Shown in pieces: positions 55,801 to 61,800 of a stretch of DNA of 64,000 bases. Source of the stretch: Escherichia coli (GTDB lineage: Bacteria; Pseudomonadota; Gammaproteobacteria; Enterobacterales; Enterobacteriaceae); the NCBI RefSeq assembly GCF_044324785.1, contig NZ_CP172127.1, one strand, 5' to 3'. How positions within the stretch are numbered: the stretch's first letter is position 1; every line of letters begins with the position of its first letter. The position numbers were made by a program.

Positions 55801-58800
55801 TACTGTCGGTTGTGAAGCATTATTCATCATCTCTTTATCCTTATAGATAGTATTTAAAGCCCAAATAAAGGCCTAACGTGTCGCCAAAAAGCGCAAATTC
55901 GGAGTACCGGCTTCCCAGCGCGCTATAGCCACCGGCATAGGCTTCAAGCTGGTTACTGATAGCGCTGAGCGGCGTGGAATAATGCAGGCCCAGCAACGTG
56001 CTGCCATCAATGAGATTGACCACCAGCGAAGGCTGCAGCGTCGACTCTCCCGCCAGCGGCAGACTGGCCCAGACGTTCAGATAGTGCTTACCCTGCAGCA
56101 TCCCCTGATTGGCGGTATTGCTGATTTCTGAAGCCATCAGGTATTTGTAAGAATCAAATGCCTGATCCAGTGGCGCATAGCCGGTTGTGGTATTGAGGAA
56201 GTCAATTAACTCGCGCTGCTGACGCTGTTCAGCGCGCGAATAACCCTCGCTCTGAAAGTAATACTCAACGCCAAACACGCTGAAATTATCACTGGTGTAC
56301 TGCCCACCCAGCGCCAGCTCCACGCCGCTTTCGTCTTTCGTTTCATAGAGCGAATCCGGAAACTGATATTCCTCGACCTGCGCCGTCTCACGGTGGGAAA
56401 GATGCCGCCATTGTTGGGAGCGGTGGTAGGCTGCGTCGACATTCAGCGTCAGCTGCGGGGTGTAGTGATAACTGTCAGACAGCGCGAGTGACGGCGATGG
56501 CCCGAGCCGCACATTGACTGTCGGCGTGTGCTCACCAAAGCGATGATCGCTGTAGCTCAGCAGATAGGCTTCATCGCTGTTTCCCTGCTGATTAGCCGAC
56601 CAGTTGCCAGACGTCACATAGCGTTTGTCGATGGTGGCTAACTTCGGTATGACGCTCGCCGAAAACGCATAATCGCGTGTATCCACGCTCATTTTTGCGC
56701 CCCACGATGACGCCTGATACGCCGATGTCATTTTGGGATCGTGCAAACGCGTCGACTGGAATCCGGTGTAATAATGCGTTTGCAAATCAGAAGGCGAACG
56801 CAAAAAGAACATTCCTGACGGCGCGGCAAATTTGCCTGCTTCAAATTGAACGCTGTCCGAAGCGCTATAGACCAGACTGAGGCGGTTAATTAACGCACGC
56901 GTGCGGCTATCATCCGTTTCGAATTTCCCTGCGGGTTTCAGCGCATATTCGTTTATTCCATACAGATTGAGCTTAAGGTCCAGCGTATTGTCGATTATTG
57001 AACAACCACTATTGATGCCAATCCCCGCCTCCTGATAACCGTTGTGACGTGTGTAGGGATTTTTGCCTGCAATCTGCCAGGCCGAAGCCTGTTTATTGAC
57101 ATAAGACACCTGCTCGTAAAGCGTCACATCGCTGTTTTGTGCCACCTCGTCACCTGACAGGCAATCCGCCTGTACCGTCAACGGCAGCACAACACACAGC
57201 AACGAAGAGATCTTCAGCGTGCGTTTCATTTCGCACCTCGCTGAATATATTCTTTGGTGAAATGAAACTCCGGCAGCGATTCCAGACGAACATCGCTGTA
57301 CTCCATCACTGAATAGTTATTGCCGTGACGGACATCGGTAACGGTGATTTTCATGGGTCGCGTTTTCCCCAGCACCGGCTGGAAATCCTGATACAACACT
57401 TCTTTTATTAACTGGTCATCCTGCGAATAATAGGCCGCCTTCCACGGGCGATTATCACCGTCTTTTTCAACGTAATAGATAACCTTCGGCCAGGTGATAT
57501 CCGCCGATTTACGCACCAGCGCGAGCTTGTAACACTGCTTTTCAGCACAAGAGACTTCCCCCACCAGGGTCGAGTCATAGGCATATTCAAAGTTAGTGAC
57601 AATGACATCGCCGTTAGAGATTTGCCCAATTAATCTTTGTTGCCGTGAAATAGGCATCGGACGTCGCAATTCCGGCGTGTAAAACCATAAATCGTACCAG
57701 TCGGAAAGCATGATTTTTCCTTTGTCTCGCGGCGGATAAATAAAACGCACCAGCGAGCGTGCATCCGCTTTTTCATTACCCTGCGGTTTCATAAAACGCA
57801 TGGAAATATCGAGGATCTGTTTATTCTCTGGCTGGGTTGCGCCCGCTTTATATTCCGTTACCGTCAGCGTGTAACGAAACGGTTTATTCGGCGAACGAAT
57901 TTCGTCAGCGCGACGAATTATCTCCAGCGCCTTATTATCTGTGCTCGCTGCCTGAACGCACGACGTAGCGAGCCACAGGCAAGCAAACCACTTGCCGTAA
58001 AAAGCCATATTCATAATCAGTCCTACGAGAATTTAAATGCGTCAGAAATATTCAGCCGGGAAGCACGTAAAGCCGGTAACACAGAGGCTCCTGTTGCTGT
58101 CAAAATGGGTAATACCACCGTCACCCAAATCAATTCCGGGTTACTGGTTTTTATAAAGGCGGTATAGCCGATGGTTTGTCCAGGCGATGGCGGCATCGCA
58201 ATACCATAAAGATTAATAATCCAGGCTAGCACGCCCCCCACCATCAGGCTACCGACTGCGCCAATCACACCAATAAAAATACCTTCCGTCAGAAACAAGC
58301 GCGTGACATGAAGAGGCTTCAGACCTATGGCACGCAGAGTGGTTATTTCACGGGTGCGCTCAACAATGTTCATTGCCATCGAATTGCCGATCATGAAGAT
58401 GACAATCAGCGCAACAATCAGCTTGATGAAGAAATAGATCCCCGACAGTAACCCCTCAACCTGTTGATAAAAGAGTGAAACATCACGCCAGTCTTTGACC
58501 ACCAGCGGCAAATGATTGCGTTCTATAAACTGACGCAGCTTCGCGCTAAACGCCGCGGTGTCATCCTCTTTAAGCAGAATAAGCACTTTGCTGACGCCAT
58601 CCGTACCCATCATGCGCTGCGCAGTGTCCAGCGGGATCTTCATCGCGACATCGTCATAATCTTTAATGCCTGACTCAAAAATGCCACGCAGTTTTAGCGA
58701 CAATGCGCCCTGCCCGCCCGCCGTGTTGACCACCATCACATCCAGCCAGTCGTCGTATTTCGCATTCAACGTTTTCGCCAGACCGCTGCCCAGGGTGATT

Positions 58801-61800
58801 TCATCACCTTTTACCCGGGAAAGATCGCTCCCCGCGATAATCTTATCGAACGATCCCAGCTTTAAAGCGGGTAACGGCTCGACACCCAGCGCAGAGAAAT
58901 AGCTGGAGGTTTCGCTCTCGTAATGTGAAATTACGCCAGTAAACTCCAGTTGCCCGGAGAGCGTGGAAATATCCGTCGCCAGCGTCGGGTCCGACAAAAT
59001 AGCTTTCTTTAACGCCGCATAATCGGCAATCAGGCTCTTATTTTTATTCGACGTTTCAAAATAGTGCTGATTGTAAATCTGTACATGACCAATATTGGTA
59101 CGAATCGTCTGCTCTTTCAGGATCCAGAAAGAGTAATCAATAAATCCGCCATATAAAAAAATTGCCACGCCGCCCAATACAATGGCAGTTATAGTAGAAA
59201 AAGAGCGACGCTTGTGGCGAAAGAGATTCAAAAATGCAAATTTGACATCTCGTGAATAAAACAGAAGCTGATAAAACACAAAAAACAGAATCAGCAGCAG
59301 AACGCAATTAACAGCTAAAATTTCCCCGGACATTTACTCACCTTTCATCAGCGGCAGCAGTACCTGGGTTAACTCTTCACTATCCCATTCTGGTACAACA
59401 TTAAAATTCTGCGTCAGCGACTGCGCAAGCGCGGCGTTTTGCCCTTTAATTTGCGCCAACAACGCATTCGCGCGGGTGGTGTCCTTGCAGTGACGTAATG
59501 CACGATAACGCATTGCCAGAATATGGTCGCGAATCGTTGTCGCCCATATCGCCGGGTCAGCCAGCATGTGCTCGGTGTCTTGGACTGTCACCACGCAACG
59601 CCCTGAATCTGCGGGTAAATAGGCATCTACGCGGGCACGTAAATAACGTACGCGTTGATTTTTCTCCTGCAAATCCACCGCTTCATCCAGCCAGAAAAAG
59701 CCGCTTTTGGCGTATTCTGAGGCATGAATAAAATCGTTTGTTGCCGCATAACCGTCCGCCTGACGCAGTAAGCCATAGGCGTAAAAAACCAGCGCCACCA
59801 CATTGTGCCTGGCTTCATACTCTTTCTTTAACGCCTCGGTCAGCGTCGCCAGCGCGGCAGGCTGCGCCGGAAGCCCTTGTTGCAGAACCTGGTTAACGGC
59901 GTCGGGTGTTGCCGCGTAAATCTTCGGGGCCAAAAATGCCGCATACAAAAAGACGCCGATGAACAAAAATCCTTTATGCATCTGAGTCATGAATCAATAC
60001 TCCATCCTGAATTTCAACCACTCGCCGTGCCCGCGCTTTTAATTCGCTGGAGTGCGTGGAAATAACAAATGTGGTGCCGGTCTGCTGATTAATCGTCAAC
60101 AGCAGGTCCAAAATAGCCTCGCCGGTTGCCAGGTCTAAATTTCCCGTTGGTTCATCGGCAATGACCACCATCGGTTCGTGGGCCAGTGCCCTGGCGATGG
60201 CGACACGCTGTTGTTGACCGCCCGATAATTGCCCAGGTTTGCGATCGCCAAAACCGCTTAATCCGACGCTATCGAGATAATGCAGCGTCCGTTCAGTGGC
60301 TTCTTTTTTACTGAACTGGCCATTAAGCACCAGTGGGAAATAAACGTTATCGAAAACATTTAATACCGGCATAAGATTAAAAAACTGAAAAATAAAACCC
60401 AGATGTTTTCCACGAATCACAGCTAACTGCTCTTCCGGCAGTTGGTTCAGTAATTTATTTAAAAATATCACCGTTCCGCTGGTCGGTTTATCAATACCCG
60501 AGAGAATATTCAACAGAGTACTTTTACCACTGCCTGACGGCCCACACAGTGCGAGAAATTCGCCTTTATTGATATCAAGATTAATGCTTTTAAGCGCATC
60601 AACCTTTCCTGCCCCGGCACCATAACACTTGTAAATGTTGCTAAGCGAAATAGCGGGCAACGATTTAATAGTAGATTGCATACGACTGTCGTTATCCTTC
60701 AAGGTATTCAAGGTCAAAGTAGTGATAACCAAACTGTTTATCGGCAATGACCGTACGCATTTTTCCACCGGGCTGAATATGACGGGTTAAATAATCCATA
60801 CTCAGCGCGGGCGTCAGACAACCGCTTTCTCCGTAATGGGCTACCAGGTCGATAACGCCAGCAGCAGGCCAGGACGGCATTTGTCGCCGTTCGCTGAAGG
60901 CCATGACATCAATATCCGTAGCATGCTGTGGCGAAGTGCCGGAATTATATTCCCCGCATTGCAGCCTGATGGCGCTCTCACGCTGGCTGAGAATAAAACA
61001 ACCCACTCGTTCAACAGATAAATTCACCTCATCAGCGCGACGAGGGAATAAACGCTTAGGCGGTTTACCCACATCCTCTTCAGAGAATACCAGTACCGGA
61101 ATTGCCCGATAGGCAGCGCAAATAACCACGTTATCGAATACATCCCAGGCGAGATAATCCTGCGCCATACGCAGCGCCTGAACGAATGCCTGTTTTTCGC
61201 CACGAATTTTGCAAGTCGGCTCCGTTATCGAAAACTTCTTAAGTAAATTCTTGGGAAGCGTATCAATAGTGGCGATATGCAGCGCACTGGAAATTTTTTC
61301 AAACGGACCGGATTCGCCCCAGGAATCGGCATAAATAAATGCCGTGCGCGATTTCATTAACTTCATGCGCTCTTTAGTCGGCATTTGTTGTAATGCAGAA
61401 TCGGTTACCTGCTCCATCGCCTCAAGGTAAGGCATATATTGCGGATTACGGATCCGTTCTGGCGCATAAATATCGTTCTCCACGCCAAAGCGCTTCAGCC
61501 CCCAGCCATTAGCACGGGTGCCGTATAATCCTCTTTCGTACATATGTGCTTCCCAGGCGTTGAGCCAGGTCGGCTGATAAAAATAAAATATGTCGTCCGG
61601 TTCCGTAAGCGCCCAGGAAGACAGGTAGATACTCTTTTCCGTCATTTCGCGCGCCCCGCTTGCATATTTGTCATGACAACGCCAATAACTGAACCATCGA
61701 CACCCACACCAACCTTCAGCAAATGGCGTTTGCTATGGTTTGTCACGCTGCCGTCCGTAAGTACCAGCGAAGCCATGCTGTCGATAATGACGTCGTTGCC

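What the first reader, a model, noticed from the sequence alone, without database searches (positions are those of the whole stretch)
57226..60681. Lol-like export module (ABC ATPase, FtsX permease, two exported proteins) embedded in the biosynthetic operon
ATPase motifs are fully intact (GPSGSGKST, LSGGQQQRVAIARAL, VVIADEPTGNLD). The permease has the FtsX layout of one N-terminal helix, a large periplasmic domain and a C-terminal helix bundle. Two signal-peptide proteins (262 aa and 218 aa) and a 462-aa probable outer-membrane protein (55841-57229) are co-encoded with 0-17 nt junctions. The arrangement resembles LolCDE/LolA or MacAB-type machinery and suggests the lipid product is delivered to the outer membrane. 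The carrier assignment is inferred from context only.
Basis: partly seen in the sequence, partly recalled or inferred. Interest (0 to 1): 0.55.

Follow-up and report, generated by a model that had tools for sequence, protein, structure and literature searches.

The report
Five-gene envelope export module in lipid cluster
Five intact genes inside an uncharacterised fatty-acid/polyketide-like gene cluster of E. coli (the O157:H7 island OI-47) encode an ATP-driven membrane extractor, a periplasmic lipid-carrier-like protein, a helical scaffold protein and an outer-membrane barrel, which most likely move the cluster's lipid product to the cell surface, though nobody has tested this.

Summary
On the minus strand, five tightly packed intact genes encode:
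- an ABC ATPase (59974-60681);
- a 218-aa exported protein;
- a FtsX/MacB-type permease;
- a 262-aa exported protein;
- a 462-aa protein.

The ATPase is 42% identical to LolD. The permease is only 19% identical to LolC and LolE. All Lol, MacB and DevA family scores fall below the curated cut-offs.

The 262-aa protein is a firm LolA_like (PF17131) member and a soluble periplasmic protein. The 218-aa protein is not a carrier: its model is an all-helical TPR-like repeat. The 462-aa protein models as an 18-stranded outer-membrane barrel of the OprD/AlgE class. Its sequence family is tiny, with 52 representatives among 1.84 billion proteins.

All five genes travel together with the same fatty-acid-synthase-like cluster in Enterobacterales, Acinetobacter, Neisseria and Paraburkholderia, and in one rearranged metagenomic locus. 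A simpler ABC-FtsX-LolA_like triad exists elsewhere.

My best reading is a dedicated route that extracts the cluster's lipid from the inner membrane and passes it via the carrier to the barrel. It works like Lol but belongs to neither Lol nor MacAB-TolC. Substrate and direction are inferred. I found no published characterisation.

The parts
59974..60681 (-). ABC ATPase (235 aa), LolD/MacB-type nucleotide-binding subunit
   Evidence: The Walker A, signature and Walker B/D-loop motifs are intact. The best NCBIfam match is LolD TIGR02211 at 227.7 bits, below the 307.75 cut-off. It is 42% identical to K-12 LolD. RefSeq and orthologues use the ATG at 60681.
59334..59990 (-). 218-aa exported all-helical TPR-like protein. 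It is encoded between the ATPase and permease genes, with a 17-nt overlap upstream and a 0-nt gap downstream.
58023..59333 (-). FtsX/MacB-type permease (436 aa) with a MacB-like periplasmic core domain and an extra N-terminal hydrophobic helix
   Evidence: Pfam gives FtsX at E 1.5e-16 and MacB_PCD at E 7.9e-9. The best PDB matches are LolE and LolF. It is 19% identical to K-12 LolC and LolE. The lolCE equivalog scores 92 bits against a cut-off of 362. The extra N-terminal helix is present in every parsed locus that also has the TPR-like and barrel genes, and absent from L059 and L060 and from L056.
57226..58014 (-). 262-aa soluble periplasmic LolA_like (PF17131, also named TP_0789-like) protein: the candidate carrier
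   Evidence: Pfam PF17131 matches at E 8.3e-36 over the whole model. PDB 3buu, 'LolA superfamily protein NE2245', matches at E 2e-34. The Cys in the signal peptide is not conserved among orthologues, so it is not a lipoprotein. It is the best conserved of the exported parts, at 61-99% identity.
55841..57229 (-). 462-aa predicted 18-stranded outer-membrane beta-barrel
54886..55830 (-). Context: FabD-like malonyl-CoA:ACP transacylase. The truncated form of this gene is K-12 ymdE.
   Evidence: NCBIfam fabD matches at E 1.6e-52. It follows the barrel gene in nearly all related loci.
53903..54889 (-). Context: YcdU, a polytopic inner-membrane protein and the last gene of the operon
   Evidence: It has multiple hydrophobic segments and no meaningful Pfam match. 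It is conserved at the end of the cluster in most loci.
60692..61645 (-). Context: conserved 317-aa protein of unknown family, immediately upstream of the ATPase gene
   Evidence: It has no Pfam or NCBIfam match. It sits directly upstream of the ATPase gene in most related loci.
61642..64000 (-). Context: the ketosynthase gene and the 3' part of the 852-aa double-ketosynthase gene. The latter runs off the window end.
   Evidence: NCBIfam gives ketosynthase matches. The RefSeq annotation of the near-identical locus agrees. The window part has no frameshift or stop relative to L001.

Best explanation
This is a dedicated five-component envelope export route for the hydrophobic product of the surrounding fatty-acid-synthase/polyketide-like operon.

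Proposed steps:
1. A homodimeric type VII (MacB/Lol-class) ABC machine forms from two copies of the ATPase and two of the single FtsX permease.
2. It uses ATP hydrolysis in the cytoplasm to drive movements of its periplasmic MacB-like domain. This pulls the lipid out of the outer leaflet of the inner membrane.
3. The lipid passes to the soluble periplasmic LolA_like protein, which shields it while crossing the periplasm.
4. The carrier delivers it to the 18-stranded barrel, which inserts it into or passes it through the outer membrane.
5. The TPR-like protein is probably made in step with the ATPase and permease, because the three genes overlap or abut. It acts as a periplasmic scaffold on the permease, possibly through the permease's extra N-terminal helix.

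Shown here: the folds and family relations of all five parts, their intactness, and their strict co-inheritance with the biosynthetic genes.

Inferred: the substrate, the direction of transport, the order of hand-over, and the role of the TPR-like protein.
For: **Parts**
- The ATPase motifs are intact and LolD is the best family match.
- The permease carries FtsX plus MacB_PCD, with LolE and LolF as the best solved relatives.
- The 262-aa protein is PF17131 at E 8e-36 and matches PDB 3buu at E 2e-34. It is soluble, not lipidated.
- The 218-aa protein is TPR-like.

**Operon structure**
- Junctions range from a 17-nt overlap to an 8-nt gap, on the same strand as the ketosynthase and FabD genes.
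- No convincing internal terminator was found.

**Co-inheritance**
- In about 40 of the 49 reference-genome loci, and in metagenomic loci L009 and L011, all five parts lie in the same cluster of gcvT-like, double-KS, KS and fabD genes. Most of these loci also keep the 317-aa gene and ycdU.
- In the other five loci that carry this cluster (the permuted Pseudomonas-type loci L041, L046, L048, L051 and L054), only the carrier and barrel genes lie within the fetched flank.
- The taxa are Enterobacterales, Acinetobacter, Neisseria and Paraburkholderia.
- All five stay together when an SDR gene is inserted, and also in L011, where the order is shuffled.
- The barrel family occurs essentially only in this context.
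- The permease's extra N-terminal helix co-occurs with the TPR-like and barrel genes. It is absent from triad-only loci.

**Precedent**
- Aryl-polyene clusters encode their own transporter plus LolA-like and LolB-like proteins, proposed to move the lipid to the outer membrane (bioRxiv 10.1101/2020.12.19.423268).
Against: - No experimental data exist for any of the five proteins or for the cluster's product. Literature searches found none.
- The product itself is unknown. The cluster has no recognisable acyltransferase or thioesterase that would define a membrane lipid.
- Physical contacts between permease, TPR-like protein, carrier and barrel were not modelled.
- 18-stranded barrels of the OprD/AlgE class are known as channels for water-soluble solutes and polymers, not for lipids.
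- ABC-FtsX-LolA_like triads also occur away from lipid-synthesis genes, for example L060. The module type is therefore not intrinsically tied to a polyketide lipid.
Confidence: 0.6

Rival explanations
1. This is an efflux or secretion pump for a soluble or amphipathic product, or a self-protection pump. The MacB-type machine expels the cluster's product from the periplasm straight through the 18-stranded barrel into the medium. The LolA_like and TPR-like proteins act as adaptors that replace the usual membrane-fusion protein.
For: - The permease has a MacB_PCD domain.
- The ATPase also scores well against MacB, DarD and bacteriocin-export ATPase families.
- The barrel's nearest structural class is made of open channels for solutes and polymers: Occ/OprD, AlgE, chitoporin.
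Against: - No membrane-fusion protein or TolC-like duct is present in any of the related loci.
- The LolA superfamily fold is a hydrophobic-cargo carrier (established knowledge of LolA and LolB; the 3buu match is).
- The biosynthetic genes resemble lipid-type FAS, with ACP, KS, KR, DH and FabD.
Confidence: 0.2
2. This is a private Lol-type pathway for a protein cargo. The module would sort a specific lipoprotein or another envelope protein, such as the neighbouring two-partner-secretion adhesin or the barrel itself, rather than the product of the FAS-like enzymes.
For: - RefSeq names the 262-aa protein 'outer membrane lipoprotein-sorting protein'.
- The ATPase is 42% identical to LolD.
- A ShlB/FHA two-partner secretion pair lies just upstream of the operon in E. 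coli, and ShlB does so in Acinetobacter equi.
- The barrel has a nearly invariant Cys right after its signal peptide.
Against: - No protein of the cluster has a conserved canonical lipobox. The residue before the barrel's Cys is mostly Asp or Asn. A second nearly invariant Cys76 suggests a disulfide instead.
- The TPS genes were not detected in most related loci, although the fetched flanks do not always reach the position upstream of acpS where they lie in E. coli. The five module genes always accompany the FAS-like genes.
- The Lol family cut-offs are missed.
- E. coli keeps its own lolCDE.
Confidence: 0.08
3. This is an uptake or retrograde system. The barrel is a substrate-specific porin that admits a precursor or host lipid. 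The LolA_like protein carries it inward, and the ABC system delivers it to the inner membrane for the biosynthetic enzymes.
For: - The barrel's structural neighbours include substrate-specific uptake channels: Occ/OprD, chitoporin, maltoporin.
- The cluster has no evident starter-unit activating enzyme.
Against: - FtsX/MacB-type ABC systems are not known importers. From established knowledge of MacB, LolCDE and FtsEX structures, they have no transmembrane substrate path and act on the periplasmic side.
- No solute-binding-protein family is present.
Confidence: 0.05

Closest known systems
LolCDE-LolA-LolB lipoprotein trafficking (and the LolDF single-permease variant)
   Same: - It has a LolD-like ATPase, 42% identical to K-12 LolD.
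- Its permease is of the FtsX type with a large periplasmic domain.
- It has a soluble periplasmic carrier of the LolA superfamily.
- Like LolF, it has one permease gene, which implies a homodimer.
   Different: - All curated Lol cut-offs are missed.
- The permease is only 19% identical to LolC and LolE, and carries an extra N-terminal helix.
- The carrier belongs to PF17131, not the LolA family.
- An 18-strand barrel replaces the LolB lipoprotein receptor.
- A TPR-like component is added.
- The module lies inside a biosynthetic operon, with no lipoprotein cargo in sight.
MacAB-TolC (type VII ABC tripartite efflux pump)
   Same: - The permease has FtsX plus MacB_PCD domains.
- The ATPase is MacB-like.
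- A mechanotransmission mechanism is expected.
   Different: - The ATPase and permease are separate genes.
- There is no MacA/HlyD-type adaptor.
- The outer-membrane partner is a monomeric porin-like 18-strand barrel, not a TolC trimer.
DevBCA-HgdD heterocyst glycolipid exporter of Anabaena (own knowledge)
   Same: It is a FtsX-type ABC exporter encoded near polyketide-type lipid synthesis genes, and it places a lipid outside the outer membrane. The DevA family is among the ATPase matches.
   Different: - The DevA cut-off is missed (187 bits against 295.8).
- There is no DevB adaptor and no TolC-like duct.
- A LolA_like carrier, a TPR-like protein and a barrel are present instead.
Aryl-polyene cluster export genes ApeM (RND), ApeL (LolA-like) and ApeN (LolB-like, DUF3261)
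   Same: - Both are FAS-like clusters of Gram-negative bacteria that carry their own LolA-superfamily protein.
- In both, the proposed purpose is to move a polyketide-lipid to the outer membrane.
- The dehydratase of related loci gives weak ApeI-like Pfam hits.
   Different: - Energy comes from an ABC/FtsX machine rather than an RND/MMPL transporter.
- A beta-barrel replaces the LolB-like lipoprotein.
- A TPR-like protein is added.
- The biosynthetic genes differ: a GcvT-like protein and a double ketosynthase, with no aryl-starter genes.
PF17131 proteins such as Nitrosomonas europaea NE2245 (PDB 3buu), and the stand-alone ABC-FtsX-LolA_like triads
   Same: The 262-aa protein is a clear member. 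Triads with the same ABC-FtsX-LolA_like gene order occur in Rubrivivax, Ideonella and Ca. Magnetominusculus.
   Different: - The triads lack the TPR-like gene and the permease's extra helix.
- Their downstream gene is at best marginally related to the barrel (E 1e-4 in L060, no similarity in L056).
- No function has been published for any of them, as far as I could search.
18-stranded outer-membrane barrels: Occ/OprD channels, AlgE alginate exporter, Wzi
   Different: - There is no sequence-family match at all: no Pfam hit even at E<=10, and only 7-12% identity in the structural alignments.
- The protein is encoded next to a LolA-like carrier.

Membership tests
LolCDE lipoprotein-release transporter | ATPase reaches the LolD equivalog cut-off (TIGR02211, 307.75 bits) | tested here: not met
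   It scores 227.7 bits and is 42% identical to K-12 LolD.
LolCDE lipoprotein-release transporter | Permease reaches the LolC/LolE equivalog cut-off (TIGR02212, 362.45 bits) | tested here: not met
   It scores 92.1 bits and is 19% identical to K-12 LolC and LolE.
LolCDE lipoprotein-release transporter | Partners are LolA (the LolA family proper) and the LolB lipoprotein receptor; the cargo is lipoproteins | tested here: not met
   The carrier matches PF17131 and no LolA model. No LolB-like gene is present. The 462-aa partner is a barrel. No conserved lipobox protein is encoded in the cluster.
LolCDE lipoprotein-release transporter | Periplasmic 'Hook' of LolC that docks LolA | tested here: inconclusive
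   The alignment with LolC and LolE is too divergent in the periplasmic domain to place the Hook. No complex model was possible.
Type VII ABC (FtsX/MacB) superfamily | FtsX C-terminal helix-bundle domain plus MacB-like periplasmic core domain, with a separate or fused ABC ATPase that has intact motifs | tested here: met
   PF02687 matches at E 1.5e-16 and PF12704 at E 7.9e-9. The ATPase motifs are intact. One deviation: an additional N-terminal hydrophobic helix.
MacAB-TolC tripartite pump | Fused ATPase-permease MacB (NF007826 cut-off 966 bits), a MacA-type membrane-fusion protein and a TolC-type duct | tested here: not met
   The ATPase scores 202 bits and the permease 22 bits. No adaptor gene is present in E. 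coli or in related loci. The barrel is porin-like, not TolC-like.
DevBCA-type glycolipid exporter | DevA-family ATPase (TIGR02982 cut-off 295.8 bits) with a DevB adaptor | tested here: not met
   It scores 187 bits, and there is no adaptor gene.
LolA_like / TP_0789-like (Pfam PF17131) | Full-length match to the family profile | tested here: met
   The match is E 8.3e-36 over model positions 2-184 of 184. PDB 3buu matches at E 2e-34.
18-stranded outer-membrane beta-barrels (Occ/OprD, AlgE class) | 18 antiparallel strands forming a closed barrel, a signal peptide, and a C-terminal aromatic-rich beta-signal | tested here: met
18-stranded outer-membrane beta-barrels (Occ/OprD, AlgE class) | Sequence membership in the OprD or alginate-export Pfam families | tested here: not met
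   No Pfam family matches even at E<=10, and there is no NCBIfam match.
TPR-like helical repeat proteins | Stacked helix-turn-helix repeats | tested here: met
Aryl-polyene export set (ApeL/ApeM/ApeN) | RND/MMPL transporter ApeM and DUF3261 lipoprotein ApeN alongside a LolA-like protein | tested here: not met
   No RND or DUF3261 gene is present in the operon or in related loci. Only the presence of a LolA-superfamily protein is shared.

The most novel reading that the evidence does not exclude
The five genes define an undescribed trans-envelope lipid export pathway. It combines a five-helix FtsX-type ABC extractor bound to a periplasmic TPR-like subunit, a PF17131 carrier, and a dedicated AlgE-like 18-strand barrel acting as the outer-membrane acceptor. 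It needs neither LolB nor a membrane-fusion protein or TolC. It places a still unknown polyketide/fatty-acid-derived lipid on the surface of E. coli O157:H7 and many other Proteobacteria. It would also explain the K-12 orphan genes ymdE and ycdU as relics of that pathway.
Probability: 0.4. Interest if true: 0.65.

Novelty: new variant of a known kind. Interest (0 to 1): 0.5.

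Why it matters
How Gram-negative bacteria move non-protein lipids other than LPS and phospholipids to the outer membrane is known for very few cases. This module would give a tractable example in E. coli.

- **Unusual part combination.** A MacB/Lol-class motor works with a LolA-superfamily carrier and a porin-like barrel in place of LolB or TolC. This would broaden what type VII ABC systems and PF17131 proteins are thought to do. 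PF17131 is a large family with solved structures but no assigned function.
- **Pathogen link.** The module lies in island OI-47, a marker of the O157:H7/O55:H7/O145 lineage (PMC8565820, PMC3893438). The lipid cluster there has no known product.
- **K-12 link.** The K-12 genes ymdE and ycdU were flagged as enriched in mastitis isolates (PMC4951805). They turn out to be the stump of this cluster.

If the reading is wrong, this is still an ordinary ABC exporter inside a biosynthetic operon.

Tried and rejected
1. **Sequence-family searches on the two unknown proteins.** Pfam, NCBIfam and PDB sequence searches on the 462-aa and 218-aa proteins gave nothing. Only structure prediction resolved them.
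2. **Lipoprotein reading of the carrier.** I read the 'LATSC' in the 262-aa signal peptide as a possible lipobox. I rejected this because the Cys is absent in many orthologues.
3. **Suspected broken ketosynthase gene.** The ORF listing showed a 306-aa ORF at 62870-63790, which looked like a disrupted double-ketosynthase gene. I rejected this: the frame is open to the window end, and the segment aligns without gaps to the intact gene of L001.
4. **Literature.** None found a characterisation of the module or the cluster.
5. **Barrel homology in triad loci.** The gene after the LolA_like gene in Rubrivivax (L056) shows no similarity to the barrel. The Magnetominusculus gene (L060) is only marginal: E 1e-4, probability 54%.
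6. **Locating a LolC-type Hook.** The alignment with LolC and LolE was too divergent.
7. **Scan retry.** The first genome-contig scan attempt failed for lack of a slot and was repeated.
8. **Promoter and terminator scan.** It gave nothing above shuffled expectation within the module.

Full report
**Where we are.** The window is E. coli chromosome next to csg-ycdZYX-ghrA and tRNA-Ser (serX). The finding lies in the island known in O157:H7 as OI-47.
- A 4.9-kb query covering the five genes matches 389 of 5,426 complete E. coli genomes. 382 of them carry at least 80% of it, at 95-99% identity. Most listed hits are O157:H7.
- The best match is an O169:H41 strain (locus L001). Its RefSeq annotation gives the operon on one strand: acpS, SDR, FabZ-like, ACP, GcvT-like aminomethyltransferase, an 852-aa double ketosynthase, a ketosynthase, a hypothetical protein, ABC ATPase, a hypothetical protein, ABC permease, 'outer membrane lipoprotein-sorting protein', a hypothetical protein, ACP S-malonyltransferase, YcdU.
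- Reviews of OI-47 discuss only its regulator GrvA (PMC8565820).

**The observation.**
- The ATPase starts at the ATG at 60681 (235 aa). RefSeq and the 235-aa orthologues of Acinetobacter equi and a Neisseria species agree. The longer GTG ORF to 60768 is an artefact of ORF listing.
- The Walker A, signature, Walker B/D-loop and H-loop motifs are intact.
- Junctions are a 17-nt overlap (ATPase/218-aa), 0 nt (218-aa/permease), 8 nt (permease/262-aa) and a 4-nt overlap (262-aa/462-aa).
- No convincing internal terminator or promoter stands out.
- Gene lengths equal those of orthologues in other genera, so nothing suggests decay.

**The ATPase and permease.**
- The ATPase's best NCBIfam matches are LolD (227.7 bits against a cut-off of 307.75), then YbbA, DarD, MacB, FtsE and DevA. 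All fall below their cut-offs. It is 42% identical to K-12 LolD.
- The permease has Pfam FtsX (E 1.5e-16) and MacB_PCD (E 7.9e-9). Its best solved relatives are LolE, LolF, YtrF, LolC, FtsX and MacB.
- The permease scores only 92 bits on the lolCE model (cut-off 362) and is 19% identical to K-12 LolC and LolE.
- There is one permease gene, so a homodimer is expected, as in LolF and MacB.
A hydrophobic helix (residues 1-27) precedes the canonical amphipathic N-terminus and TM1.

**The 262-aa protein.**
- It is a full-length member of Pfam PF17131, called LolA_like or, in a later release, TP_0789-like (E 8.3e-36).
- It matches the solved 'LolA superfamily protein NE2245' (3buu) at E 2e-34.
- Its signal peptide ends in A-x-A. 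The Cys inside it is missing from many orthologues, so it is a soluble periplasmic protein rather than a lipoprotein.
- It is the most conserved exported component, at 61-99% identity among 120 listed relatives.

**The 218-aa protein.**
- No sequence library recognises it.
- An AlphaFold2 model from 24 homologues is confident (pLDDT 87.2) and all-helical.
- It has a cleavable signal peptide and no conserved Cys.
- It is therefore a periplasmic TPR-like scaffold, not a lipid carrier.

**The 462-aa protein.**
- It too has no sequence-family match.
- The model from 25 homologues (pLDDT 83.8, pTM 0.79) has 18 strands with helical insertions.
- Beyond its own orthologues, Foldseek against AFDB50 finds mostly 'alginate export' and porin entries.
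- It ends in KYYL or KYYF. It has two nearly invariant cysteines, Cys23 just after the signal peptide and Cys76. I read these as a disulfide, because the residue before Cys23 is usually Asp or Asn, which is unlike a lipobox.
- The family is very small. A profile search of 1.84 billion representatives found 52 proteins at E<=1e-3, many of them fragments.

**Conservation of the set.**
- Look-ups of distant barrel relatives and a scan of one genome per species gave about 55 loci. I mapped the 17 E. coli proteins and three profiles onto them.
- In Enterobacterales, Acinetobacter and Neisseria the order is identical: ...gcvT, double-KS, KS, 317-aa, ABC, TPR-like, FtsX, LolA_like, barrel, fabD, ycdU.
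- In a second tier (Serratia, Cedecea, Erwinia, Paraburkholderia) an SDR gene sits between FtsX and LolA_like.
- In Pseudomonas alcaligenes-type loci the operon is permuted and starts with LolA_like-barrel-fabD. Its ABC, TPR-like and FtsX genes were not within the fetched flank.
- In metagenomic locus L011 the order is shuffled, yet all five parts remain in the cluster.
- The TPR-like gene between ABC and FtsX is a true homologue in L009 and L011 (hhalign probability 99.8% and 98.5%).
- Identity to E. coli falls fastest for the barrel and the TPR-like protein (22-49% and 30-48%). It falls slowest for the ATPase, permease and carrier.
- A third tier (Rubrivivax, Ideonella, Ca. Magnetominusculus) has only ABC-FtsX-LolA_like. 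The Ideonella triad sits next to a ketosynthase-rich cluster. The Magnetominusculus triad is next to unrelated genes. In Rubrivivax a polysaccharide chain-length gene lies about 2 kb downstream.
- The gene after the Magnetominusculus carrier gene is marginally similar to the barrel (E 1e-4). The Rubrivivax one is not.
- The permease's extra N-terminal helix is present in every cleanly parsed locus that has the TPR-like and barrel genes. It is absent from L059 and L060 and from L056.

**Mechanism.** I commit to a dedicated export route for the operon's hydrophobic product.
1. The ABC/FtsX machine extracts the lipid from the periplasmic face of the inner membrane. This follows from established knowledge of MacB and LolCDE mechanotransmission.
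2. The PF17131 carrier ferries it across the periplasm.
3. The barrel receives it at the outer membrane.
4. The TPR-like subunit scaffolds the permease.

The folds, the intactness and the co-inheritance are shown. The substrate, the direction and the contacts are inferred. I put confidence at 0.6. The rivals are:
- an efflux pump for a soluble product (0.2);
- a private Lol pathway for a protein cargo (0.08);
- an uptake system (0.05).

**Comparison with known systems.**
- It works like Lol, but a defining feature fails for each of LolCDE, MacAB-TolC and DevBCA (see the membership table).
- The nearest functional analogy is the aryl-polyene cluster. There an RND transporter (ApeM), a LolA-like protein (ApeL) and a LolB-like lipoprotein (ApeN) are proposed to take the lipid to the outer membrane (bioRxiv 10.1101/2020.12.19.423268).
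- Here the motor, the receptor and an extra subunit differ. I therefore rate it a new variant of a known kind.
- I found no paper on the module or the cluster. The library does not cover subscription journals.

**Verdict.** Interest is 0.5. This is an uncharacterised and unusually composed lipid-export candidate in a well-known pathogen island, and it is testable in E. coli. But it is an expected kind of accessory to a lipid gene cluster.

Noticed in passing
window 53147-53767 (with tRNA-Ser at 53078-53165, + strand): A 180-bp unit is repeated 3.4 times in tandem at 97% identity. It starts inside the 3' end of the single tRNA-Ser(GGA) gene and fills the gap to ycdU. Each copy carries a terminator-like hairpin. 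In the closest genome the same gap is only about 190 nt. It may be a reiterated attachment-site or terminator unit at the island boundary.
   Followed up: partly
window 53903-55830 (ycdU and the FabD-like gene): The K-12 orphan genes ymdE and ycdU are the stump of this operon. 2,667 of 5,426 complete E. coli genomes match ycdU plus only the 3' 340-525 nt of the FabD-like gene. Only 389 genomes have both genes whole. PMC4951805 treats ymdE-ycdU as uncharacterised genes enriched in mastitis isolates, without this context.
   Followed up: partly
L001 32872-38392; L002 1-1214; L039 and L058 downstream of ycdU: A two-partner secretion pair (a ShlB-type transporter plus a filamentous-haemagglutinin-like protein) lies immediately upstream of acpS in E. 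coli. ShlB does so in Acinetobacter equi. TpsA-like ORFs follow ycdU in two Erwinia loci. The association recurs at different positions, so it may be functional.
   Followed up: no
window 60692-61645 and 53903-54889: Two more conserved cluster proteins have no family assignment: a 317-aa protein directly upstream of the ATPase gene in most related loci, and YcdU (328 aa, polytopic membrane protein). YcdU is a candidate for the missing membrane-bound step that attaches the acyl chain to an acceptor.
   Followed up: partly
L041, L046, L048, L051, L054 (Pseudomonas) and L011: The operon is circularly permuted in Pseudomonas alcaligenes-type genomes, where LolA_like-barrel-fabD-acpS come first and the ketosynthases last. 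It is shuffled in one metagenomic locus, which also carries a DUF1571 gene next to the carrier.
   Followed up: no
L059 (Ideonella aquatica) 1-10705: An ABC-FtsX-LolA_like triad without the TPR-like and barrel genes directly follows a different cluster rich in ketosynthase, FabD-like and FabZ-like ORFs. This suggests the triad has been recruited by more than one lipid or polyketide pathway.
   Followed up: no
window 62870-64000: the ORF listing reports a 306-aa ORF here. In fact it is the 3' part of an 852-aa double-ketosynthase gene that runs off the window end. The frame is open and aligns without gaps at 97.9% to the intact gene.
   Followed up: yes
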